A stretch of DNA of 64,000 nt from the NCBI GenBank assembly GCA_963699705.1, contig CAVOUW010000003.1, positions 2,161,776 to 2,225,775 on the forward strand, read 5' to 3'. This stretch comes from an uncultured delta proteobacterium. Lineage in GTDB: Bacteria; Desulfobacterota; Binatia; Binatales; Binataceae. Positions 26,017 to 59,907 of the stretch are shown here, piece after piece. Position 1 is the stretch's first letter; every line of letters starts with the position of its first letter. The position numbers and the translations under genes are program-made. The notes beneath the pieces are model-generated. The model was not told where the DNA came from. It worked only from the letters and a program-made list of their open reading frames with translations, and ran no database searches.

Positions 26017-26109
26017 CACCATCCTCGACGATACCTGACGCGCTCGAAGAAAAGAAAACGCGGGCGTCATCTTCAACGCCCGCGCCTCTTTGTGTTTGCG
26101 ATTATCGGT

Positions 26110-27145
26110 TTACGGAACCTGGATCTGCTGAATCTGCGCAGTCTCTTTCTGCACTACCGCGGGAGGAAGCGGCGCGTACTTCAGGTCCGGCGCGTAGGTC
26201 TGTCCCTCGGTCAGCGCCCAGCCCAGGAACTTCTTGATCTGCTCGCCGACTTCCTTGTTGGTCTGCTTCTGATAAACCAGCAGCCACGTGAACGACGAGA
26301 TCGGGTACGCATCGGGGCCCGGCGCGTCCGTGATCGACACGCGGAAGTCCGCCGGCATGTTGCCCGCCGTTGACGCCGCCGCGGCCGTCACGCCCGCCAG
26401 GCTCGCGTCGACCCAGTTGCCCGCTTTGTTCTGGATCTGCGCGAATGGAATTTTGTTGTTGAGCGCGTAGATCAGCTCGACGTATCCGATCGAGCCGGGC
26501 GTCTGCTGCACCAGCGCCGTCACGCCCTCATTGCCCTTGCCGCCGAGTCCGGTCGGCCACTTGACCGCGGTGCCCTTGCCCGGATCCGACGCCCAGCTCG
26601 AGCTCACCTTCGAAAGGTAGTCGGTGAAAATATACGACGTGCCGCTGCCGTCCGACCGGTGGCATACGACGATGTCCTGCCCCGCCGGGATCTGCGCGCT
26701 CGGATTCAGCGCCCTGATCTTGTCGTCATCCCATTTCGTTATCTTGGCCGAGAAAATGTCCGCGATAACCGGACCCGTCAGCCGCAGCGTGCCGGTGAAG
26801 CCAGGCAGATTGTATGCGACCACGACCGCGCCCATCACGCTCGGGAAGTGCAGAATTTTTCCCGGCGCATCGGAAAGCTGTTGATCGGTCATCGGCGCGT
26901 CGCTCGCACCTAGATCAACCGTGCGATTCGACAGCATTCTGATTCCGCCGCCCGAACCAATCGATTGGTAGTTGAATTTGACCCCTGGATTTTCCTTCGC
27001 GTAAACGTCGAACCACTTGGAATAGATCGGATATGGGAACGTCGCGCCGGCGCCGTTGATTAATATGGTCGGCGAATCCGGATCGGCCGATTCCCGCAAT
27101 CGCAAGGAGTATGAAAAGGGCCAGAATGAGTCGTCGTTTGATCAT
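26110..27145 (-). pseudogene. pstS: phosphate ABC transporter substrate-binding protein PstS, apparently frameshifted within the signal-peptide region
   Basis: The mature PstS (ADPDSPTILINGAGATFPYPIYSKW...NYQSIGSGGG) is in the frame of ORF 26110..27105. The only signal peptide (MIKRRLILALFILLAIAGIG) is in the +1 frame of ORF 26915..27145. A TGA closes the PstS frame immediately upstream. Confidence 0.7.
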
Positions 27146-27383
27146 CTTTTGAACTTGCCTCGGTTAGTCGTGTCCGCTCCGCGAGTGGGGGTGCGGCGCG
27201 CAGAAGCTATGCACTGAACATTAACAGGGGATGAACCCGGCGTGTCGGCGAGTTGAAATCGTCCGCGTGGACCGCGATTCCCGTGGATAACCGCGCTTTG
27301 GCTGTAACCGTTTGCTTTTCTCGGCGTCGCTCGACGACAATTCAGATCGCCGTAACAATTCCGGTTCCTAAGCGTATTTTCCA

Positions 27384-28536
27384 ATGAGTAAATCACTCGA
27401 CGGAATCAACCTCGTCGAATTCGACTCCAACCTCGGCGCAGCTTACGCCGCGATGCTGCTCGCTGAAAACGGCGCGCACGCCATCAAAGTCGAGCCAATC
27501 GGCGGCTCGCGCCATCGCGTCACCCCGCACTTCCACGTCCTCAACCGCAGCAAGCGCGCGCTCGAGCTTGACCTCGACGATCCCGCATCACAGCCGCGCA
27601 TCGCCGATCTGATTCGATGGGCCGACATCGTCGTCACCGGCTTCACCCCGGCCCGCCTCAAACAACGGAATCTCGATCCAGAATCGATTCGCCGGATAAA
27701 TCCGCGCGCGATCGCGCTTGGCGTCCCTCCATTAGGCAGCCGCGGCCCCGACGCCGACTTCGACGCGAACGACGACCTTGTCGCGGCGCGCGGCGGAATC
27801 ACCGGCAGCCAATGGGCGCGCAGCGGCAATCCCGTCGCGCTGGTCTTTCCAGCGGCCAGTTATTCGGCCGGCGTGATGGCGGCGACCGCAGCGGTCGCAG
27901 CCCTCCTCGCGCGCGGTCGCGACGGAGGAGCAGGGCAGGCGGTCGAAGTGTCGCTTCTCGCCGGCGCCTTCTCGCTCCACACCGGCGGAATCCTGCGTCA
28001 CGAAAAAATGACGACGCTCTATCACGGGCCGCAGGATCCGCTCGGTCCGATTCCGGTTTATCGTCTGTTCGAAGCCGCCGACGGCAAATATCTGTTCGCC
28101 GCATGCGGCAACGCGACCTTCTGGGGCAAGTTTGCAATCGCAATCGATCGCCCCGATCTCGTCGGCGACCCGCGTTTCGAAAATGCGCCGTGGGGAATCG
28201 CGCAGGAACACTGGCAGCCGCTCAAGGACATCGTCGAGCCGATCATTCGCACCAAGTCGCGCGACCAATGGCTGAGCATCCTGCGCGAGGCCGACGTTCC
28301 ATGCGCTCCCGTGATGTCGCGTCACGAGTTTATCGATCACCCGCAGACGCGCTGCGCTCGGGATGCGCCATGAAATCGACGACCCCACTCTCGGCCGCAT
28401 GATTCAGATGGGCCTGCCGGTCTTTCTCAACGATACGCCCGGCGAAATCACCGGCGCGGCTCCGAAAAAGGGCGACGATCGCGCGGCCTTGCAATGGCTT
28501 CGAGAGCCAACCCGCGCCATCTCGCTAGAAATGTAA
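27384..28536 (+). pseudogene. CaiB/BaiF-family (class III) CoA-transferase, apparent 1-nt frameshift near the C-terminus
   Basis: The ORF stops at 28373 (…DHPQTRCARDAP*). The conserved C-terminal block continues in frame +1 (MRHEIDDPTLGRMIQMGLPVFLNDTPGEITGAAPKKGDDRAALQWL…EM*) to 28536. Removing one t at about 28351 restores …PQTRALGMRHEIDDPTLG. Confidence 0.7.
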
Positions 28537-28579
28537 GCCGCGTGTCGCTGAAAAAGGGCCTCCGCTCGATGGGGTCACG

Positions 28580-29710
28580 GTGCTCGACTTCGCCAGCTAC
28601 ATCGCCGGTTCGTACGGGCCAATGATCCTCGCGCAACTCGGCGCCAAAGTTATCAAGATCGAAAGCCTCGAGGGCGATTCGTTCCGCCATTTCGGCTTCG
28701 GCTTCCTCGGATGGAACCAGGGCAAGCGCGGCCTCGCACTGAATCTTACGACTGACCAGGGCCGCGAAATCATTCACGGACTCGCAGACAAAGCGGACAT
28801 CGTGGTCGAGAACCTGCGCCCGGGCCGGATGCGCAAGTTCGGCTTCGATTACGAAAGCCTCGCCGCGCGCAACCCGCGCATCATCTATATGTCGGTCAAC
28901 GCGTTCGGAAATCGCGGCCCCGAACACAATCAGCCCGGCTTCGATCCGCTGCTGCAGGCGCGCTCGGGCGTAATGGCGGCGCAGGGCGGCCATCACGGGC
29001 ATCCGGTGTACTTGACCTGCGCGATTTGCGATTACGGCGCCGCAATGCTCTCCGCGTTCGGATGCGTCCTCGCACTGCGTGCGCGCGAAATCACGGGACG
29101 CGGGCAATTCTGCGAGACCTCGCTCTTGCAATCCGCGATGGCGTTTCAGGCCGGCGAGTTCGCCTTCTATTCCGGCCGCCCCGACATGGAAAACGGCAGC
29201 TCTGAGAATCGCGGACGCTCCGCCGTTTCGCGCGCCTATCAATCGCGCGATGGCGAATGGCTATTCATCTCACTATCAAATGAAACTCAGTGGCTCGCGC
29301 TACTGACTATTCTGCCCGAACTGCGGAATACTAACTGGGATACGGCGCTAGCGGCTCCGAACGAAGGATCCCTCGCGACCGCACTGGCAGAGCAATTCGC
29401 CAGGCTCAATCGCGACGACGCACTCGCAGCGCTAAAGAAATCCGCAATCCCGGCGACACCGGTAAATCACACGCGCGAACTGTTCGATGATCCCCAGGTC
29501 GCCGCCAACGACCTGATCGCCGAGCTGTCCCATTCGGAATGGGGCCGCGTGAAGCAAACCGGGATGCTGACGAAGTTCTCCGCGACCCCCGGCAAGGTCG
29601 ATCGCGCCGCCCCGATGCTCGGCGAGCACACCGACGAGATCCTCCGCGAGTACCTCGGCTACTCGCCCGACCGAATCGCGAAGCTGCGCGCCGCCCACAT
29701 CATCAAGTGA
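28580..29710 (+). CDS. CaiB/BaiF-family (class III) CoA-transferase, second copy
   Basis: VLDFASYIAGSYGPMILAQLGAKVIKIES...GWNQGKRGLALNL. The listed GTG start truncates the conserved N-terminal GPLDGVTVLD motif (see findings). Confidence 0.8.
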   Translation: MLDFASYIAGSYGPMILAQLGAKVIKIESLEGDSFRHFGFGFLGWNQGKRGLALNLTTDQGREIIHGLADKADIVVENLRPGRMRKFGFDYESLAARNPRIIYMSVNAFGNRGPEHNQPGFDPLLQARSGVMAAQGGHHGHPVYLTCAICDYGAAMLSAFGCVLALRAREITGRGQFCETSLLQSAMAFQAGEFAFYSGRPDMENGSSENRGRSAVSRAYQSRDGEWLFISLSNETQWLALLTILPELRNTNWDTALAAPNEGSLATALAEQFARLNRDDALAALKKSAIPATPVNHTRELFDDPQVAANDLIAELSHSEWGRVKQTGMLTKFSATPGKVDRAAPMLGEHTDEILREYLGYSPDRIAKLRAAHIIK

Positions 29711-31446: not shown

Positions 31447-32409
31447 TTACAATTCGAGATCGACGGTCACGAAATCATGATCGGACACGCGGCGCATCAT
31501 GATCGGCGATCGCGGAGTGATCACCGCGGCCGTCCCGGCGATCGGATGGAGGTCGCGGACCGCGAGCCAATCAAGTTTTGGCCGCATCGATCGCGGAATC
31601 ACTCCGGAGAAGGTGAATGTCGGCCGATTCGCGACGTTGACGCCATCGATCTCGAGCCGATGCGCTCGCAGATGCTCGAACAGGGGCTCGTATGGCTGCG
31701 GCGCGCGAAACCGCGCGGGATTCGCGATCATCTCTCGCGCCGTCCAACGCAAATCATGCCAGCTCGACAGCTGAGTGGTCGTGGTATTCAAATCGCCGCC
31801 GAAAACGGCGCGCCCGGTGACCGGGAACGATTCGAGGTAAGTCGCCAGCTGACGCGCGCGCTCAGGCGGCGTGCATCGGCTATGCAGATGCGCGAGGCCG
31901 ACGGTCAATTCTCGACCGCCGAAATTGATTTTGGTGACGATTCCAGTCGGCGTTCCGACCCGCGACCAGTTCCGGTTGCGGCGCAACATGCGCGGCGTGC
32001 GCGGATTGTGCATCGCGACCGCGACCACATCATCGAATGGCACGGCGCTCAGGATCGCGTTGCCCAGGTACCCGCGGATTTCTCCGCTCTCGTTGATCAC
32101 GCCGAACTCGCGGACGTACGCGCAGCTCATCTCGAGCATCGATGCCATCTCCACCGCAACGTCGCGGCGCGCTGACGGCCTCGTCCCCTTCGCATTGACT
32201 TCGCACAAAAGGATGACGTCTGCGCCTTGCAGCGGCGGACGCTTCAGACATGCGACGATTTCGGGGAACCCTCTGCCCCCGGCCGCGTTGAGCAGCACGA
32301 CTCGCAGGCGCGATCCGGGCCGGCGCGCCGCGCGATTCACCACGATCGGCGGAAAAGGCGGTGCGAGCTTCGGGACAGCCGCGTTGAGATCGAGCGCGTC
32401 GCGATGCAT
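31447..32409 (-). CDS. endonuclease/exonuclease/phosphatase (EEP) family protein
   Basis: [11 protein letters not shown]...[10 protein letters not shown]...[10 protein letters not shown]...FGGDLNTT...[11 protein letters not shown]. Confidence 0.75.
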
Positions 32410-32418
32410 CGCCGGAAA

Positions 32419-34457
<2,039 letters not shown>

Positions 34458-34539
34458 CCGGTTCGGGCTTGCGCCCGGAATGACTGTCGGCGATTTTTTT
34501 CCTGGCTCATGAATCTCACATAATCCTATCTGCGTCCCG

Positions 34540-36365
34540 ATGCTCTGTCATACCGATCGAAACGACACCGTCGGATGGCAGAGGATGGAGCGCGCCAGTT
34601 ACAATTCGCTGCTATGGTCTCCGCATCCGCACCGCGCGACTCGATCGCATCGCAGCACGAATCGCACCGACGATTCGCGATTCCGCTTCTATGCCGGCGC
34701 CGTCCTCGTTCTCACTGCGATTCTTTTCTTCACGCGCCTCGGTGCGCGAGCGCTGTGGTCCTCGGAATTCCGATGGGCCGAAATCGCGCGCGAGATGCTC
34801 GTGACGCACAACTATTTCTGGCCGACGATCAACGGCCACGTCTATTACGACAAGCCGCTGGGCTCGTACTGGCTGGTAATTTTCTCGACACCGTTCACAG
34901 GAGGCCTCAACGAAGCGGCCACGCGTCTGCCCAGCGCGATCGCCGGACTGCTGGCGGTCGGCAATACTCATGCTGCTCGACGCGACGGCTCTACGACGCT
35001 CGCACCGCGATACTTTCCGGCGTCATCCTCGCGACCAGCTTCAGCTTCGTATTCTTTTCGCGCGACGCCAGCGCCGACGTCGAGACGATCGCCGGCGAAC
35101 TCGCGGCGCTGCTGCTCTTCAACTACAACGAGGAGCGCGGCACTGGAATCTGGATCGTCGGCCTGTGGCTTATCATGGCCGCGACGTCGCTCACCAAAGG
35201 CTTGCTCGGATTCGCGCTGCCGCTGCTGATGATTGGCGCATACTCATGCCTGCGCGACGGATGGGCACAATTGTTTCAGGAAGTTTCCCGAGGCTCACTC
35301 GCTGATCGAATACGGCGGCTCATCGATCGCAACCGATGGTTCTTCAACTGGTACACGATCGTTGGCATCGCGATCGGCGGCTTCGTTTACTACCTGCCGT
35401 TCGAAATCTCGGCGCGCATGATGGGCACGCAAAAGGGCCTCGCGATGGTTTATCGCGAGAACGTCGTGCGTTTTTTCCATCCTTTCGACCATCGCGGCCC
35501 TATCTACTTATACATCTACGTGATCTTCGGCCTGATGGCGCCATGGTCGGCGCTGTTGCCAGCCGCCCTGGTCGAAACGCACAGCTTGCGACGTGCCAAT
35601 GCCGAGCCGGCGCGCAGCGATCGATTCGCGCTGGTATATTTCTGGGCGACGTTCATATTTTTCACGCTGTCCGGATCGCGCCGCAGCTACTACATCCTGC
35701 CGATTCTGCCTGCCGCGGCGATGCTGGTCGCACGAACGCTCGCGTATCCCGGCGAACTACGCTCGACGTTCGCCCGCCGCTTGATGATTATCGGCTACGC
35801 GATCGTAGCGATCGCCGCTGTCGGAGGCATTATCCTGCTGATTCCGGCCTGGGCGGTTTTGCCGAGCCCTTATGACGCTCTGCCTGACCTGCCCGCGAAA
35901 TCCGCCTTCATAGTATTCTGGATTGTCTCAGTCGGCGCGGTCGTCTACGCGATTCGCAAATTCAGCCCATATCAAGTCGCAATTTCGATGGCGGCAATTT
36001 CCTACCTTGTGATGGCCTACATATATATCTTCGCGATGCCCGCTGCGGAGGCCTATCGGGGCGAAAAACCGTTCGGTTATGCGGTGCTGAACAAGATTGG
36101 CGGTTCCACGGATCACCTGGTCCTGTTCAAGACCGAGGGGCCGCTGTTCTATCTCAATCCGCCCAAGCCCCTGCCTGAGTTTGAAGACAAGCAGGACTTG
36201 CAGGATGCGATTGCGAATGGGGGCGCCAAATGGATGATTGTCCGCCGCCGCGACATGCCGAAGCTCGACACTGCGACGACGATTGAGCTTAGTGAGGCGT
36301 CATATCCGTGGGAGACCGATTACAATTTCCGGAATAAGGTGGTGCTGGTGAAGATCGGCAACTGA
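34540..36365 (+). pseudogene. GT39-family (ArnT/PMT-like) membrane glycosyltransferase, apparent frameshift(s) near codon 140
   Basis: N-terminus in frame 1 (RLGARALWSSEFRWAEIAREMLVTHNYFWPTINGHVYYDKPLGSYWLVIFSTPFTGGLNEAATRLPSAIAGLLAVG). The remainder is in frame 0 (…RRLYDARTAILSGVILATSFSFVFFSRDASADV… to 36365). A short ILMLL segment is readable only in frame 2 around 34960..34990. Confidence 0.65.
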
Positions 36366-36390: not shown

Positions 36391-36433
36391 GAACCTAACC
36401 CCTAACCCTTTCCCGAGCGGGAAGGGGAACCAG
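36391..36433 (+). repeat. family 2 GC-rich hairpin repeat (copy 1)
   Basis: GAACCTAACCCCTAACCCTTTCCCGAGCGGGAAGGGGAACCAG, with the stem CCCTTTCCCG/CGGGAAGGGG. It sits between the convergent GT39 and dnaN genes. Confidence 0.75.
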
Positions 36434-36450: not shown

Positions 36451-37593
36451 CTAGAGTCGCATCGGCATGACGACGTAGGTGTACTGCTGATCCGTCTCGG
36501 TTCTGATGACGCCGGGGCTGACGTCGTCGCTTAGTCCGAGTTCTACTGTCGAATCCGCTTCCTGCGAAATTACGCCGAGGGCTTGCTGTACGTATGACGC
36601 GTTGAATCCGATCGCGAATTCTTCGCTCTTGAAATCGACGTCGAGCGATTCGCTGGCTTCCCCGGTTTCGGGACTCGTCGATGAGACCGTCAGCGTCCCG
36701 GCCGATAGCGCGAATTTGACGCCGTGATATCGCTCGCTGGAGAAGATTGCCGCGCGTTTGATTGCCGCAAACAGCAGATCACGCTTTACCGTGATTTTGT
36801 ATTTCGACTGCTTGGGGATTACACCGCGATAGTCAGGAAATTCGCCTTCGACCAGCCGCATCGAGACTTCAGTCGCGCCGCGCTTCAAATACGCGAGCTG
36901 ACCTTCGAGGCTCAGGCGCACTTCCGGTTCGGTGCCGACATCCAGAATCTTGCGCAGTTCCGCGAGACCCTTTCGCGGAATGATCGCGCCGCTTGGCATC
37001 GCGAATCCCGGCACCTCGCGCTCGATCATCGCGAGGCGATGCCCATCGGTCGCGACCATCCGAACCGCTCCGGGAGCGTTGGACTCGACAAACACGCCGC
37101 TCAAGTTGTAGCGCGCTTCATCGGGACTGACCGCGAAGATCGTTTTGTCGATCATCTGGGCCAGCACTGTCGCTGGGATCGCCAGTTCGGCCTTGAGCTG
37201 TTTCTTCGCTGCGCCAGAATCCTTGCCGGTGCTCTGACTTGGCATCGCGGGGAAGCTGCGCGGATCGAGGCCCATCATTTTGAACTTCGCGCGCCCGCAT
37301 TTCAGCTCGACCCAATCGCCATCAAGCGTCGTCAGCGCGACTTCCTCGCCTTCGGTCTCGCGCACGATTTCAAAAAGTTTGCGCGCGTTGAGGGTCAGAC
37401 TTTTTTCCTTGCCGCTACACGCGACCTGGGTGCGAATTCCGACTTCGAGGTCGGTGGCGCTGAGCGTCAGCGCGTTTCCGTTTGGCTCGAGCAGGACGTG
37501 ACCGAGGATCGGAACCGTCGTGCGCCGTTCCACGATGCCCTGGACGAGTCCCAAACCGCTAAGCAGCGAAGCGCGCTCGATTGCGAGTCCCAT
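36451..37593 (-). CDS. dnaN: DNA polymerase III subunit beta (sliding clamp)
   Basis: MGLAIERASLLSGLGLVQGIVERRTTVPILGHVLLEPNGNALTLSATDLEVGI…three-domain clamp. About 380 aa. Confidence 0.9.
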   Translation of the reverse strand: MGLAIERASLLSGLGLVQGIVERRTTVPILGHVLLEPNGNALTLSATDLEVGIRTQVACSGKEKSLTLNARKLFEIVRETEGEEVALTTLDGDWVELKCGRAKFKMMGLDPRSFPAMPSQSTGKDSGAAKKQLKAELAIPATVLAQMIDKTIFAVSPDEARYNLSGVFVESNAPGAVRMVATDGHRLAMIEREVPGFAMPSGAIIPRKGLAELRKILDVGTEPEVRLSLEGQLAYLKRGATEVSMRLVEGEFPDYRGVIPKQSKYKITVKRDLLFAAIKRAAIFSSERYHGVKFALSAGTLTVSSTSPETGEASESLDVDFKSEEFAIGFNASYVQQALGVISQEADSTVELGLSDDVSPGVIRTETDQQYTYVVMPMRL

Positions 37594-37833
37594 GAATTGT
37601 TAGCCCGTCTTCCTATTCCGGATCTTTAGATCTCTAAAAAAGAATAGCAGTAATAGTAGGAGTTGTGGATTTGTTGATGGAGCCCGCAAGCGACCGAAAT
37701 TGAACGCCGATCGATCGCTGAAAAGCTGTCGGCGAAAAAACGGCTACTCGACAGGGCCGGCCGTCCGCGCACCGACCCTGTCGATAGCTCCAGGTTTATG
37801 CTCCCCTCGTCCACAGCCTCCCCCACAATCGAT

Positions 37834-39258
37834 TCACGCCGCATTCGCGCGGATCGATTTAAGCTCGCGCTCGATTTTCTCGATCGAGAGCCGAAAAGCC
37901 GAATCACTGGTCACGCGCCGCATGATCAGGTTGTACGCGTGAATCACCGTCGAATGGTCGCGCCCGAAATGTTCGCCGATGGTCGGAAACGAGCTGTCGG
38001 TCAGCTTGCGGCAGAGATACATCGCGACCTGGCGGCAGAATGCGATGTGCTGCGTGCGCTTCTTCGACTTCAAATCCGTCAGCCGGATATGGAAAAAATC
38101 CGCGACGGTTTTCTGGATCGATTCGACGTCGGGCTTCGCGTCGTGATTGCGAATCAAATCCTGTAGCGCCTGCCGCGCGAAGTCCACGGTGATTGCCGAT
38201 TGGTTGAGCGACGCGAGCGCCGCCAGCCGCGTCAGGCATCCCTCGAGCTCGCGAACATTCGACGAAACGCTCTGCGCGATATACATCGCGACTTCGGGCG
38301 CCAGTCGCAGGTTTTCGAGCACCGCCTTCTTCTGCACGATCGCGACGCGGGTCTCGAGGTCGGGCGGTGCGATGTCCGCGATCAAGCCCATCTCGAAGCG
38401 ATTGCGCAGCCGCTCCTCGAGCCCCGGAATTTCGCGCGGCACTTTGTCCGAGGTCAGGATGATCTGATGCCGTTCGGCATGGAGCGCGTTGAACGTGTGG
38501 AAGAATTCTTCCTGCGTGCGCTCGCGACCGGCCAGGAATTGCACGTCGTCGAGGATCAAAGTATCAACGCGTCGAAACTTTTCGCGAAACTCGTTCATTT
38601 TGTCGCGCCGCAGCGAGCCGATCAGCTCGTTCATGAAAATCTCGGCCGGCATGAACAGCACTTTCCGCGGCCGCTCGCCGACGGCGTAGATATGGTGCCC
38701 GATCGCGGTCACCAGGTGCGTCTTGCCCAGGCCGACCCCGCCGTAGATGAAAAGCGGGTTGTATTTTTCGCCCGGCTGATTGGCGACCGCCTGGGCCGCG
38801 GCATGCGCGAACTGATTGGCCGATCCCACCACGAACTCCGCAAAACTGTAGCGGGCGTTCAGGGTCGGATGACGATCTCCACGCGGCGCAGCCGCCGTGG
38901 TCGCGCGATTGGTCGCATACGCCTTGCCGTTACCGTTCCCGTTAGCATGGCCGTTGCCATTTGAATGGCCGTTGGCATGACCATTGGCCGGACGTTGTGG
39001 CGGCGTCACGGCCGCAGCATTCTCGCCCAGCGTCAGCCGCACCTCGATTTCGCCGCCGGCCTCGGCCGACAGCGCGGAGCGCATCATGCTCATGTAGCGA
39101 TCGTTGATCCAATCGCGAAAAAATCGGTTGGGCGCTTCGACCGTGACCGTCGAACCTTGATGAGCGACAAAATTAAGCGGCCCAATCCACGTCTCGTACC
39201 CGACCTGACCGAGCTCATCGCGCATACGGTCCGCAGCCCGCTGCCATAGTCCATTCAT
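37834..39258 (-). CDS. dnaA: chromosomal replication initiator protein DnaA
   Basis: [28 protein letters not shown]…[10 protein letters not shown] (Walker A)…DDVQFL…a C-terminal DNA-binding domain (HSTVIHA). ATG at 39256..39258 is preceded by GGGGGAA. The ORF opens at GTG 39276. Confidence 0.9.
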
Positions 39259-39345
39259 ATCGTTCCCCCTGACCACCCCGGAAGCCCAAGCCCGCTCCGG
39301 AAATTAGCGCGCCGGCATCGATCCGGCGCGAATTACGCACAGTCT

Positions 39346-57360: not shown

Positions 57361-58772
57361 GTCCCTATCTCTATTACCTCTTCGCCTTCGGATTTCCCCA
57401 CGGCCCGATGTGGTCGCTCGCGACGTTCTCCGGCGATCTGCTCAACTTCGTAGTGCCGACTAATTTGAACGTCCTCGGCCATATCGGCGCCTTCGAATCG
57501 ATCTCCAACAATTTCGCCGGCAACATCTACGAGGCCGCGGGATATCTAGGACTTCCACTCATACTGATCGCGATCATTTTCGCGCGCTATCACTGGCGCG
57601 AGCCGCTGGGCAAGTTGCTGATCGATTCGCTGGTGATCATTTGCGTCCTGTCACTGGGTCCTCTGCTTCACCTGGCAGGGAAGCCTTCAATCGGCCTGCC
57701 AGGAAAGTTGCTCGCGCGGTTGCCGATCCTTGAAAATGCGTTACCCGCGCGGTTCATGCTCTATGCTTTTCTGGATCTATCGATCTTAACTTCAATCTGG
57801 CTGGCCACCAGCTCCGCAAAAACAGTTTCGAAGTACGCAATTGCAGTTCTCGCGGCCTTGTTTCTGATGCCGAATCTCTCCGCGACCTCCTGGAGTGCGC
57901 CGATCGATACGCCGCCCTTCTTTTTGAACGGGCTCTACCGGAACTACCTGGCTCCCGACGAGACTGTGGTCATCCTGCCCTACGGGCTCAGAGGCAACAG
58001 CCTGCTCTGGCAGGCCCAGACCGACATTTATTTTCGCATGGCGGGCGGCTATACGGGCGTCATGCCTCCCGATTTCGAAAGTTGGCCGATTGTCGATGCG
58101 ATGTACGCTGGAGCTTACCTTCCCGACCCAGAAAATCAGTTGAAGGCGTTCCTCGCCAATCATGACGTAAGCGCGGTCATCGTCAGCGACAATGAAAAGG
58201 ACGCATGGCGGCCTCTGCTCGCCACCTTGGAAGTTACACCAATCGATGTCGGCGGCGTGGCACTCTACAAAATTCCACCTCTCAACCTTGCCGCTTATAA
58301 AGGTCAGACTCCGCTTAATTTGGAGCGCCAGGCCGATTCGACTCGCTTCGACGCTCTTATCGTCGCCGCCAACAAGTATCTCCAACGCACCGGCTCTCTC
58401 GACGGTCTCACTCCGCACGTGGCCGATAGCCTCGGCCTGATTCCCGCCGGTTGGCTCGTAGGTCCGCCGCTGCCGCCCTACTATTGGAGTCAGGGTTCGG
58501 AGCTTCGCCGCGACAAGGGTCTCTGGCTAGGTCCATGGCGCGACGGTCAAGCGAGCATCGGGTTGGAAGGTTCCTATGCCGCGATCAAACCGCTGATCGA
58601 CAAGTATCGCGCCTCGGCCAGCCAGATTTATTTTCCCTATCCAGATCAGTTCTCCGAGACTTCGCAGAAAGACGGCTCAGCGCTTCTGGTGATAGTCTTC
58701 GACCGCGAGCAATTGTCACGTGCAGCCGCTCAAATTGAAGCGTCCCCTTCAAGGCCGCGGGACGCCACGTGA
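57357..58772 (+). CDS. membrane protein with a large C-terminal periplasmic domain (C-terminal module, or a frameshifted continuation of the previous ORF)
   Basis: (M)VSPYLYYLFAFGFPHGPMWSLATFSGDLLNFVVPTNLN…4-5 TM, then about 300 aa soluble. Possible starts are GTG 57357 and ATG 57354. The ORF track extends it to 56781 in a non-coding frame. Confidence 0.45.
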   Translation: MSPYLYYLFAFGFPHGPMWSLATFSGDLLNFVVPTNLNVLGHIGAFESISNNFAGNIYEAAGYLGLPLILIAIIFARYHWREPLGKLLIDSLVIICVLSLGPLLHLAGKPSIGLPGKLLARLPILENALPARFMLYAFLDLSILTSIWLATSSAKTVSKYAIAVLAALFLMPNLSATSWSAPIDTPPFFLNGLYRNYLAPDETVVILPYGLRGNSLLWQAQTDIYFRMAGGYTGVMPPDFESWPIVDAMYAGAYLPDPENQLKAFLANHDVSAVIVSDNEKDAWRPLLATLEVTPIDVGGVALYKIPPLNLAAYKGQTPLNLERQADSTRFDALIVAANKYLQRTGSLDGLTPHVADSLGLIPAGWLVGPPLPPYYWSQGSELRRDKGLWLGPWRDGQASIGLEGSYAAIKPLIDKYRASASQIYFPYPDQFSETSQKDGSALLVIVFDREQLSRAAAQIEASPSRPRDAT

Positions 58773-59907
58773 GCGCGCTTCCTAAAGATTACCGTCCAAC
58801 TCTCGACGGATGGCGCGCGATAGCCATCCTGCTCGTGATGTTCGAGCATTGCGGCGGCGCCTTGTTCGAGCCGGGCGGTCGATTTCCCAATCCGACCTGG
58901 TTCGGAATCAGCCAGCACGGCGTATTCGGGGTTGACCTGTTCTTTGGTATCAGCGGGCTACTGATTTGCGGCCGCTTGCTCGACGAGAACGACAAAACCG
59001 GCGGGATAAGTCTTCGCAGCTTTTACACCCGGCGCGTGTTCCGAATTATTCCACCCGCATTCGCGTACCTTGCGACCATCGCCGTGCTCGCGATAATCGG
59101 CGTCATCGTATGTGACTCCGCGAGAATGGCTCGCCAGTCTGTTCTTTTCCCGCAACTACATCCTGATGCCAAAGGACGCCGGATGGTACACCGGACATTT
59201 CTGGTCGCTCGCCGTCGAGGAACATTTCTATCTCATCTGGCCGGCCGCGCTGATAGCACTCGGCAGTAGCCGCGCGCGGCGTTTCACGCCATGGCTGGCG
59301 ATCGCCGTCGCGCTATGGCGAGTGGTGGACTACGTCTATTTCCACGGACAAATCTGGCCCGGCGTCCTATCGAATCTCATATATGAGAGGACGGATACGC
59401 GCTTCGATGCTCTATTGTGGGGATGCTGGATCGCACTGATTGCTCGCGATCCGGCTTTCCGTGACGCTTACACGAAACCTCGGTGCGGGACTCATCATAG
59501 GACTTCTGCTATCGGCGCTGATCGCATTGCTCGCGCTGAATCCTCCGTTGCAGACGGGCGTCGAGGGTTTCCTGGTGCCCGCCATCCTGATCGGCACGGT
59601 TCTCAATCCCGGACTGTTGCTAAGCCGAATTCTCGAAACCTCACCGATGCGCTGGATAGGACGGATTTCCTACAGCCTCTACATCTGGCAGCAGCTTTTC
59701 CTCGGGACCATTCGCCGTCCGCTGCCGCTCGGAGTGCTGCAGGAATTTCCACTGAATATTGTCGCGGTATTCGTCTGCGCCGCCACGAGCTACTACCTGC
59801 TCGAGCGCCCACTGGTCCGCATCGGACATTCGTTGTCCGCCAGATTTCAAACTCCACAAATCCAGCCGAGCGCTCTTGTTCCGCTCTCCAGAAGGGAGAG
59901 GGGTTAG
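58769..59907 (+). pseudogene. acyltransferase family 3 (OafA/YrhL-like) membrane protein, two apparent frameshifts
   Basis: Frame 2: LDGWRAIAILLVMFEHCG…GVDLFFGISGLLI…RRVFRIIPP. Frame 0: WLASLFFSRNYILMPKDAGWYTGHFWSLAVEEHFYLIWP. Frame 1: IGRISYSLYIWQQLFLG…YYLLERP. All three acyltransferase-3 signature blocks are present but in three different frames (junctions at about 59105..59130 and 59455..59475). Confidence 0.65.

What the first reader, a model, noticed from the sequence alone, without database searches (positions are those of the whole stretch)
27384..28582. Tandem CaiB/BaiF CoA-transferases, both with indel-type defects (one at an A5 homopolymer)
Copy 1 loses frame about 9 codons before its stop. 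Deleting one t near 28351 gives …DHPQTRALGMRHEIDDPTLGRMIQMGLPVF…, a typical family-III C-terminus. Copy 2 begins at GTG 28580, which cuts the conserved GPLDGVTVLD N-terminal motif. Adding one A to the AAAAA run at 28551..28555 yields GTG(28542) MSLKKGPPLDGVTVLDFASYIAG…, a canonical N-terminus. Two adjacent paralogs with independent lesions are notable.
Basis: seen in the sequence. Interest (0 to 1): 0.5.

Follow-up and report, generated by a model that had tools for sequence, protein, structure and literature searches.

The report
One fused CoA-transferase gene, assembly-type frameshifts
The two "damaged neighbouring genes" are one conserved two-domain CoA-transferase gene interrupted by two stray single-T insertions, in a Nanopore-only metagenome contig that carries many such insertions, so this is most likely sequencing noise and not gene decay.

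Summary
Both pieces are family III CoA-transferases (PF02515). They are not two genes. In 58 of 58 testable Binataceae genomes the region is one intact ORF of 768–785 codons: domain 1, a linker, then domain 2.

In the window this gene (27384–29710) changes frame twice, each time by an extra T:
- **Site 1, T 28353.**
- **Site 2, T 28534.** It lies in the linker and creates ATG-TAA. It is not at the A5 run. The A5 run has normal length, and the frame through it (PRVAEKGPPLDG) matches the orthologs' linker.

T 28534 is absent from a 99.3%-identical sibling contig. It is one of at least 11 window-private 1-nt insertions in 27 kb. Others break the PBP, DsbH-like and PMT genes, and an acyltransferase gene elsewhere shows the same pattern. 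The siblings come from a Nanopore-only project (Flye plus one Medaka round).

T 28353 is shared with the sibling, and sequence context does not explain it. It may be real (about 0.3). dN/dS of 0.12–0.19 argues against an old pseudogene.

Verdict: observation partly confirmed, "two paralogs with independent lesions" not supported, low interest.

The parts
27384..28352 (+). Domain 1 of the fused CoA-transferase (residues 1-323), window frame 0, from ATG 27384
   Evidence: PF02515 profile 1-324. tblastn to L001/L002 residues 1-322 at 88-90% identity. Colinear with intact 768-785-aa orthologs.
28353..28353 (+). Site 1: extra T inside the alternating-CG tract (ACGCGC[T]GCGCTC). It shifts the frame +1.
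   Evidence: Absent from L001-L003, L086-L088 and all orthologs that carry the tract. Present in the 99.3% sibling L004. Not explained by sequence context.
28371..28373 (+). Premature TGA in the domain-1 frame, a consequence of site 1
28363..28365 (+). ATG (Met327, conserved in 57/59 sequences) lying 8 nt upstream of the premature TGA. It would be the restart codon if the T were real.
   Evidence: The restart function is inference only.
28354..28533 (+). C-terminal tail of domain 1 plus the start of the linker (residues 324-383), window frame 1
   Evidence: tblastn to L001 323-376 at 91% identity in frame 1. Restores PF02515 profile positions 324-365.
28534..28534 (+). Site 2: extra T after ATG 28531-33. 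It creates TAA and shifts the frame +1. Private to this contig.
   Evidence: Absent from L004/L083, L001-L003 and L086. In L004 the tail, linker and domain 2 form one open frame.
28535..29710 (+). Rest of the linker (KPRVAEKG) and domain 2 (PPLDGVTVLDF...AAHIIK) with stop, window frame 2
   Evidence: PF02515 1-366. tblastn from 28541 at 91% identity. 100% aa identity to L004 over domain-2 residues 396-600. Invariant GFDPLLQARSG motif.
28551..28555 (+). A5 run, not a lesion. It encodes part of the conserved linker E-K. The adjacent GGG 28556-58 is an in-frame codion-length difference between strains.
   Evidence: Same A5 length in L002, L004 and L086. 3-nt (in-frame) indel only.

Best explanation
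**The gene.** Window 27384-29710 encodes one protein of about 774 aa made of two family III CoA-transferase modules (31% identical) joined by a linker of about 15 residues. It is effectively a covalently linked version of the dimer that this enzyme family normally forms. Domain 2 has an invariant catalytic-Asp motif. In domain 1 the equivalent position varies between D and E. The substrate is unknown.

**The lesions.** As assembled, the gene is interrupted by two single-T insertions, at 28353 and 28534, each shifting the frame +1 (0 to 1 to 2). The most likely cause is consensus error in a Nanopore-only metagenome assembly, with the real gene intact.

**What is shown**
- The fused architecture.
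- The exact positions of both extra bases.
- The private status of T 28534.
- The abundance of similar private insertions elsewhere in the contig.

**What is inferred**
- That T 28353, which a sibling assembly shares, is also technical.
- That the window's 3.27-Mb source contig comes from the same Nanopore-only project as its siblings.
For: - **Fusion is the native state.** The closest homologs run continuously through both domains. Of 77 Binataceae loci, 58 of 58 testable are stop-free ORFs of 768-785 aa, including the full-length short-read MAGs. JGI contigs at 93-95% aa identity encode 772-775 aa.
- **Site 2 is private to the window.** In the 99.3% sibling L004 the tail, linker and domain 2 are one frame.
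- **The window carries many private insertions.** There are at least 11 private +1 insertions and no private 1-nt deletions in 27 kb, versus 2 in the sibling. They hit the PBP gene (27065), the DsbH-like gene (34469, 32631, 32454), the PMT gene (34662, 34960, 34978) and intergenic DNA, with no depletion in coding sequence. An Acyl_transf_3 gene at 58.8-59.8 kb is spread over three frames in the same +1/+1 manner.
- **Relatives show the same noise.** Each relative from the same ENA series has its own private 1-nt insertions in this very gene. Other relatives' proteins from ENA assemblies end out of frame at unrelated positions.
- **The platform fits.** That series is the Microflora Danica long-read set (L003 = L073 = MFD01138.bin.1.15). 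It used R10.4.1 flow cells, Guppy SUP, Flye and one Medaka round with no short-read polishing (PMC12313526).
- **No sign of decay.** dN/dS of the window's gene versus other species is 0.12-0.14 overall (0.10-0.32 by segment), versus 0.12 overall (0.11-0.22 by segment) in the intact-versus-intact control. Window versus L004 in domain 1 gives 0.19.
- **The shared T resembles a private error.** Its context (GC[T]GCGC) is like the private insertion at 34469 (GGC[T]TGCGC).
Against: - T 28353 is the same base at the same position in two assemblies whose surrounding 2.5 kb differs by 2.7%. Random error cannot do that.
- Fifteen Nanopore assemblies from the same project carry the ACGCGCGCGCT tract without the insertion.
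- The window itself reads about 40 other (CG)n tracts cleanly, including an identical 11-mer at 31852. No systematic-error mechanism is therefore demonstrated.
- Phylogeny is compatible with a clade-specific real mutation.
- I could not see reads, and no independent copy of this strain exists in the collections.
Confidence: 0.6

Rival explanations
1. T 28353 is a genuine, lineage-specific frameshift inherited by both the window strain and L004, while T 28534 is still an artefact. The fused gene is then split inside domain 1 into a 329-aa N-fragment and a 448-aa fragment (tail of domain 1, linker, domain 2). The second fragment starts at the conserved ATG 28363, which overlaps the new TGA by 8 nt. 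It could be made by termination-reinitiation and reassemble with the N-fragment. Alternatively the gene is a very young pseudogene.
For: - The identical T occurs in two alleles that differ at dS 0.11.
- The context and motif controls are negative.
- The window and L004 are each other's nearest relatives in domain 1, with no T-less sequence nested between them.
- Purifying selection persists between the two T-bearing alleles (dN/dS 0.19), and a fully open downstream frame of 449 codons exists in L004. Both fit a still-functional split.
- Two other assemblies break at this same tract, hinting at a fragile spot.
Against: - All 58 other species and 7 close JGI relatives are unsplit.
- Both T-bearing assemblies are error-prone Nanopore consensuses, and their independence is unverified. 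One sequencing run contains alleles of both.
- No contig encodes the predicted split products.
- Low dN/dS and an open downstream frame are equally what an artefact predicts.
- There is no recognisable Shine-Dalgarno sequence before ATG 28363 (sequence inspection).
Confidence: 0.3
2. Both T insertions are real, and the gene is a decaying pseudogene in this strain.
For: Two lesions fall in one gene. The block 26095-28582 is the most divergent stretch between the window and L004.
Against: - T 28534 is absent from the 99.3% sibling.
- Equivalent private insertions hit several unrelated neighbouring genes at about 1 per 2.5 kb, which is implausible biologically.
- dN/dS is 0.12-0.19, and there are no other stops.
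Confidence: 0.05
3. One reading: two separate tandem paralogous genes, with copy 2 starting at GTG 28542 and having lost one A from an A6 run.
For: Adding an A yields a plausible MSLKKGPPLDG... N-terminus and a full PF02515 match.
Against: - The frame upstream of the A run is already homologous to the orthologs' linker.
- The A-run length equals that in relatives.
- No ortholog has a stop or start there. 58/58 are fused.
Confidence: 0.02
4. Programmed +1 ribosomal frameshifting at one or both sites.
For: Both shifts are +1 and the downstream frames are intact.
Against: - No ortholog (0/58) needs a shift at either site.
- Site 2 is strain-private.
- I see no conserved slippery or stall motif, and T 28534 creates an immediate TAA.
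Confidence: 0.01

Closest known systems
Family III CoA-transferases (Pfam PF02515: Frc/YfdW formyl-CoA transferase, CaiB, BaiF, SUGCT)
   Same: Both domains give full-length PF02515 matches (E 6e-75 and 2e-104 after repair). They align end to end with solved enzymes such as 10uh, 9br6, 4ed9 and 1pqy. Domain 2 keeps the Asp motif invariantly.
   Different: - Two modules sit in one chain of about 774 aa. All 35 PDB hits are single-module chains of 359-456 aa.
- No NCBIfam equivalog cut-off is reached, so the substrate is unassigned.
- The Asp position in domain 1 is D/E-variable.
Benzylsuccinate CoA-transferase BbsEF (PDB 9fn0), built from two paralogous family III subunits
   Same: Two different family III modules work together. 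Both BbsE-like and BbsF-like chains are hit by each domain.
   Different: Here the two modules are fused by a linker instead of being separate subunits. Similarity is distant (E 1e-11 to 1e-40). There is no benzylsuccinate-pathway gene context.
Residual indel errors of Nanopore-only metagenome assemblies (Flye + Medaka; Microflora Danica long-read MAGs, PMC12313526)
   Same: The siblings come from that project. Private single-base indels break genes at random positions in every sibling. The window shows at least 11 private insertions in 27 kb.
   Different: The window's errors are all insertions and are mostly not in homopolymers. One of them (28353) is shared by two assemblies and is not reproduced in 15 other assemblies with the same context.

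Membership tests
CoA-transferase family III (PF02515) | Whole-domain match above Pfam's gathering score | tested here: met
   219-350 bits against a cut-off of 23.3. Repaired domain 1 covers profile positions 1-365 of 366 and domain 2 covers 1-366.
CoA-transferase family III (PF02515) | Catalytic Asp in the G-[FY]-D-x-x-x-Q-A motif (Asp169 of O. formigenes Frc, from established knowledge) | tested here: met
   - Domain 2: GFDPLLQARSG, with D520 invariant in 59/59 sequences.
- Domain 1: the aligned position D130 is D in 46 and E in 13 of 59. It is met in the window but is not a strictly conserved Asp across orthologs.
CoA-transferase family III (PF02515) | Interlocked-dimer fold | not tested
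   No structure was predicted. The repaired fused sequence is not admissible to the structure tool. This feature is inferred only from end-to-end alignment with solved members.
Named equivalogs (Frc TIGR03253, CaiB NF002914, YfdE NF008511, succinate-glutarate CoA-transferase NF052585, mesaconate CoA-transferase NF041294) | Whole-protein score at or above NCBIfam's curated cut-off | tested here: not met
   the best score is 305.6 bits against a cut-off of 750. All seven models fall below their cut-offs.
Fused two-domain CoA_transf_3 orthologs of Binataceae | Colinear alignment over both domains and the linker, in conserved synteny (PBP upstream; a roughly 180-aa gene downstream, with GH172 beyond it in the nearer relatives) | tested here: met
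   Residues 1-774 match at up to 89% identity in full-length loci (91-93% in partial ones).
Fused two-domain CoA_transf_3 orthologs of Binataceae | Single uninterrupted ORF of about 770-785 codons | tested here: not met
   In the window as assembled, the gene is in three frames. It is met in 58/58 orthologs. The failure is attributed to two inserted T's.
Genuine pseudogene | Lesion reproduced in independent data from the same lineage | tested here: inconclusive
   Site 1 is shared with L004, but the independence of the two assemblies is unverified. Site 2 is not shared. No other same-strain copy exists.
Genuine pseudogene | Relaxed selection (dN/dS approaching 1, secondary stops) | tested here: not met
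   0.12-0.14 against other species and 0.19 against L004 in domain 1. There are no extra stops once the two T's are removed.
Programmed ribosomal frameshift | Frameshift site conserved among orthologs | tested here: not met
   0/58 orthologs require a shift. Site 2 is strain-private.

The most novel reading that the evidence does not exclude
The T at 28353 is real. In this Binatus lineage a fused, interlocked two-module CoA-transferase has undergone fission inside module 1. The last roughly 55 residues of module 1 are now delivered as an N-terminal extension of module 2, translated from the conserved ATG 28363 that overlaps the new stop codon. The two pieces still assemble into a working enzyme, which would explain the continued purifying selection between the two T-bearing alleles. 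The alternating-CG tract at this site would then be a recurrent breakage or mutation hotspot, since two other assemblies lose colinearity at the same place.
Probability: 0.15. Interest if true: 0.4.

Novelty: not a real feature. Interest (0 to 1): 0.12.

Why it matters
Mainly as a caution. Gene calls on Nanopore-only MAGs split this conserved enzyme of about 774 aa into 329-aa and 376-aa "genes", and both fragments are already deposited in protein collections. The same happens to neighbouring genes.

The underlying gene has modest interest in its own right. It is a covalent tandem of two family III CoA-transferase modules, conserved across Binataceae and present in a Chloroflexota MAG. No tandem chain appears among the 35 solved structures it hits, and its substrate is unassigned.

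If the shared T at 28353 proved real, it would be a small natural experiment in splitting an interlocked enzyme within a domain.

Tried and rejected
Rejected.
- **Uniformly error-ridden window.** Pfam scans of about 45 ORFs showed most genes are full length. Breaks were found only in the CoA-transferase, PBP, DsbH-like, PMT and Acyl_transf_3 genes.
- **Context-driven systematic miscall of the (CG)n tract.** Rejected by 15 clean Nanopore loci and about 40 clean tracts in the window itself.
- **C/T polymorphism rendered as "CT" by the consensus.** I found no CGT allele among relatives, so this stays speculative.
- **T-less sequence nested inside the window+L004 clade.** None was found, so the test is uninformative.
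- **JGI metagenome scan for the site-1 context with or without the extra base.** It returned only T-less alleles from other species.
- **Exact look-ups of the repaired and split-ORF products.** None is on record.
- **Short Logan contigs from run ERR10755948.** They match the window or L004 alleles but do not cover either site.
- **Paper supplements.** None are held, so the sample and run links could not be made.
- **Recollected mycobacterial tandem CaiB/BaiF protein (Rv1866).** The literature search found nothing, so it is not used.
- **RNA genes.** No tRNA or Rfam element lies in the window.

Full report
**1. What is in the sequence.**
- On the + strand, ATG 27384 opens a 329-codon ORF that ends at TGA 28371-73.
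- Its product matches Pfam PF02515 (CoA-transferase family III), but only over profile positions 1-324 of 366.
- The missing C-terminus lies in the next frame, up to TAA 28534-36.
- A third frame is open from 28529 and encodes a second complete PF02515 module ending at 29710. Its first canonical start is GTG 28580, which removes the first six profile positions.
- The coding frames therefore run 0, then 1, then 2, which means two successive +1 shifts.

**2. It is one gene, not two.**
- A search with "copy 2" returned closest relatives of 556-681 aa. These run from domain 1 through a linker (...LQWLREPTRDSSQQTDLRVTGKPPLDG...) straight into domain 2.
- A scan of one genome per GTDB species gave 77 Binataceae/Candidatus Binatus loci.
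- 58 of 58 loci that could be tested hold a stop-free ORF of 768-785 codons. These include full-length short-read MAGs such as UBA7539 "Ca. Binatus soli", palsa_1114, SPRUCE, SMAG and ilm_asm bins, plus one Chloroflexota MAG.
- JGI metagenome contigs at 93-95% aa identity encode 772-775 aa.
- The two modules are 31% identical to each other.

**3. Where the second break really is.**
- In the window, the copy-2 frame upstream of GTG 28580 reads KCKPRVAEKGPPLDG. This aligns with the orthologs' linker ...(L/P)RV(T/A)EK-PPLDG, and tblastn homology in that frame begins at 28541/28544, upstream of the A5 run.
- The A run has the same five A's in L002, L004 and L086. The neighbouring GGG (28556-58) is part of an in-frame, codon-length (3-nt) difference from relatives.
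- The frame change is an extra T at 28534, directly after ATG 28531-33, and it creates TAA.
- Removing both T's gives a 774-aa protein with no stops.

**4. Are the lesions real? Site 2.**
- The exact GH172 neighbour protein led to L004 (ENA ERZ25039470 contig_137), which is 99.3% identical to the window over 21 kb.
- L004 lacks T 28534. There the tail, linker and domain 2 form one frame (...LREPTRASQLKMEVRVTEKGRPPLDGVTVLDF...).
- Against L004 and its extension L083, the window has 11 private single-base insertions and no private single-base deletions in 27.3 kb: 23087, 27065, 27350, 28534, 32454, 32631, 34469, 34662, 34960, 34978 and 44234. The sibling has 2.
- These insertions break or garble four genes, with no depletion in coding sequence: the PBP gene (signal peptide out of frame), the DsbH-like thioredoxin gene, the PMT glycosyltransferase gene (three insertions, net +3) and the CoA-transferase linker.
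- Outside the compared span, an Acyl_transf_3 gene at 58.8-59.8 kb is spread over three frames in the same +1/+1 fashion.
- Most other genes give full-length Pfam matches.
- In a four-way DNA alignment of this gene, every assembly has its own private insertions: L003 at about 28272, L002 at about 28982, and L001 at about 29348 and 29401. Relatives' gene calls show split UvrD, GH172 and PMT genes.
- These contigs belong to the Microflora Danica long-read project. L003 is the same contig as L073, MFD01138.bin.1.15 contig_9436. The project used R10.4.1 flow cells, Guppy SUP, Flye and one Medaka round with no short-read polishing (PMC12313526).
- The window's own 329-aa and 376-aa products occur on a single 3,267,514-nt NCBI/ENA contig. 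That this contig belongs to the same project is an inference.
- T 28534 is thus best read as a consensus error.

**5. Site 1 is less clear.**
- L004 carries the same T at 28353 and reads the same ...TRCARDAP*.
- The T lies inside a block (26095-28582) where the two contigs differ by about 2.7%. Coincident random error is therefore excluded.
- A context-specific miscall is not supported. Fifteen Nanopore loci from the same project carry the ACGCGCGCGCT tract, nine of them with the identical 14-mer, and none has an insertion.
- The window itself has about 40 intact (CG)n tracts, including the same 11-mer at 31852.
- The window and L004 are nearest neighbours in domain 1 (96.3% aa). The T-less sequences P0100, P0135 and P0127 are at 95.0-95.3%, so a clade-specific real mutation is possible.
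- Several points argue against a real, old inactivation:
  - dN/dS between the two T-bearing alleles is 0.19 in domain 1 (25.5 synonymous against 15.5 non-synonymous changes).
  - Against other species it is 0.12-0.14 overall (0.10-0.32 by segment), versus 0.12 overall (0.11-0.22 by segment) for two intact orthologs.
  - The downstream frame is fully open.
- The independence of the two assemblies is not established. Short Logan contigs from one run (ERR10755948) carry the window allele at one variant site and L004 alleles at two others.
- The mosaic of near-identical and 2-3% divergent blocks is what a consensus over two co-occurring strains would also produce.
- No independent copy of this strain was found.
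- My estimate is about 0.6 that T 28353 is technical and about 0.3 that it is real.

**6. How the gene most likely works (inference).**
- Family III CoA-transferases act as interlocked dimers with an active-site Asp. This is established knowledge, with solved examples among the hits.
- Here two diverged modules are joined in one chain, analogous to the two-paralog BbsEF enzyme (9fn0) but fused.
- Domain 2 has an invariant GFDPLLQARSG motif (D520 in 59/59). Domain 1's aligned position is D in 46 and E in 13. Domain 2 is therefore probably the main catalytic module.
- No NCBIfam equivalog cut-off is met, and the neighbours give no pathway clue (PBP, a 180-aa protein of unknown function, GH172). 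The substrate is unknown.

**7. Rivals.**
- **The T at 28353 is real (0.3).** The gene is then split into a 329-aa fragment and a 448-aa fragment. The second starts at ATG 28363 (Met327, conserved in 57/59), which lies 8 nt before the new TGA. The gene would be either a functional fission or a very young pseudogene.
- **Both T's are real (0.05).** This is contradicted by the sibling contig and by the equivalent damage in unrelated genes.
Refuted.
- **Programmed frameshifting (0.01).** There is no conservation in 58 orthologs.

**8. Verdict.** The "feature" is most likely not biological. Interest is low (0.12). Read pile-ups at the two sites would settle it.

Noticed in passing
window 28345-28364; L089:10954-10975; L085:1-120: The alternating-CG tract at site 1 shows three independent discontinuities.
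- The T shared by the window and L004.
- L089 (ERZ25039491 contig_46689) is syntenic up to ...CTCGGGAT and then runs more than 10 kb into unrelated genes (SQS_PSY, amino oxidase, PilZ, radical SAM).
- L085 (JBAWCX010000111.1) begins with 100 nt of unrelated DNA and joins the gene exactly at CAGACGCGCGCGCTCGGG.

This is either a fragile or mutable spot, or a place where assemblies fail.
   Followed up: partly
window 26110-27145 (-), insertion at 27065: The PstS-like PBP_like_2 gene has its signal peptide (ORF 26915..27145) out of frame with its body, because of a window-private extra base. The sibling L004 and L001-L003 encode an intact 341-344 aa protein.
   Followed up: yes
window 32429-34510 (-): 34469, 32631, 32454: The DsbH-like thioredoxin gene (678-695 aa in relatives) carries three window-private +1 insertions. 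Its last 67 residues are in another frame, while the wrong frame stays open and overlaps the next gene.
   Followed up: yes
window 34593-36362 (+): 34662, 34960, 34978: The PMT-family glycosyltransferase gene has three private +1 insertions (net +3). The ORF looks intact, but about 105 residues are read out of frame. A gene caller would not flag this.
   Followed up: partly
window 58769-59800 (+): The Acyl_transf_3 domain is spread over three successive frames (profile positions 4-95, 115-180 and 214-319). That implies two more +1 shifts in a region not covered by the sibling contig.
   Followed up: partly
window 20277-47594 vs L004/L083: Divergence from the 99.3% sibling is mosaic. There are blocks of 2-3% difference (22.6-23.1, 24.2-24.9, 26.1-28.6 and 34.4-35.5 kb) between blocks that are nearly identical. 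This points to recombination between strains or to a consensus that switches between co-occurring strains. About half of the private insertions sit next to SNP clusters.
   Followed up: partly
window residues 125-141 and 516-534 of the repaired protein (27756-27806; 28931-28987): The two modules are asymmetric. Domain 2's catalytic-Asp motif is invariant in 59 sequences. Domain 1's aligned Asp is replaced by Glu in 13 of 59, and its motif is loosely conserved. Domain 1 may be a degenerate or regulatory partner.
   Followed up: partly
window 36400-36405: A 6-nt unit (GGGTTA) differs in copy number between the window/L004 and a short Logan contig from run ERR10755948 (L084).
   Followed up: no
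window 36454-39303 (-): dnaN and dnaA lie here, so the window spans the probable chromosomal origin region. I did not examine the origin itself.
   Followed up: no
P0008, P0012, P0129, P0140 (proteins from four different contigs): Several gene calls of 463-467 aa start at the same internal residue (M/V of ...PV(M/L)(S/T)R(H/Q)EF...), about 16 codons before site 1. For L003 this follows from a private insertion about 40 nt upstream. For the three short JGI contigs the cause (contig edge or start-codon choice) was not checked.
   Followed up: no
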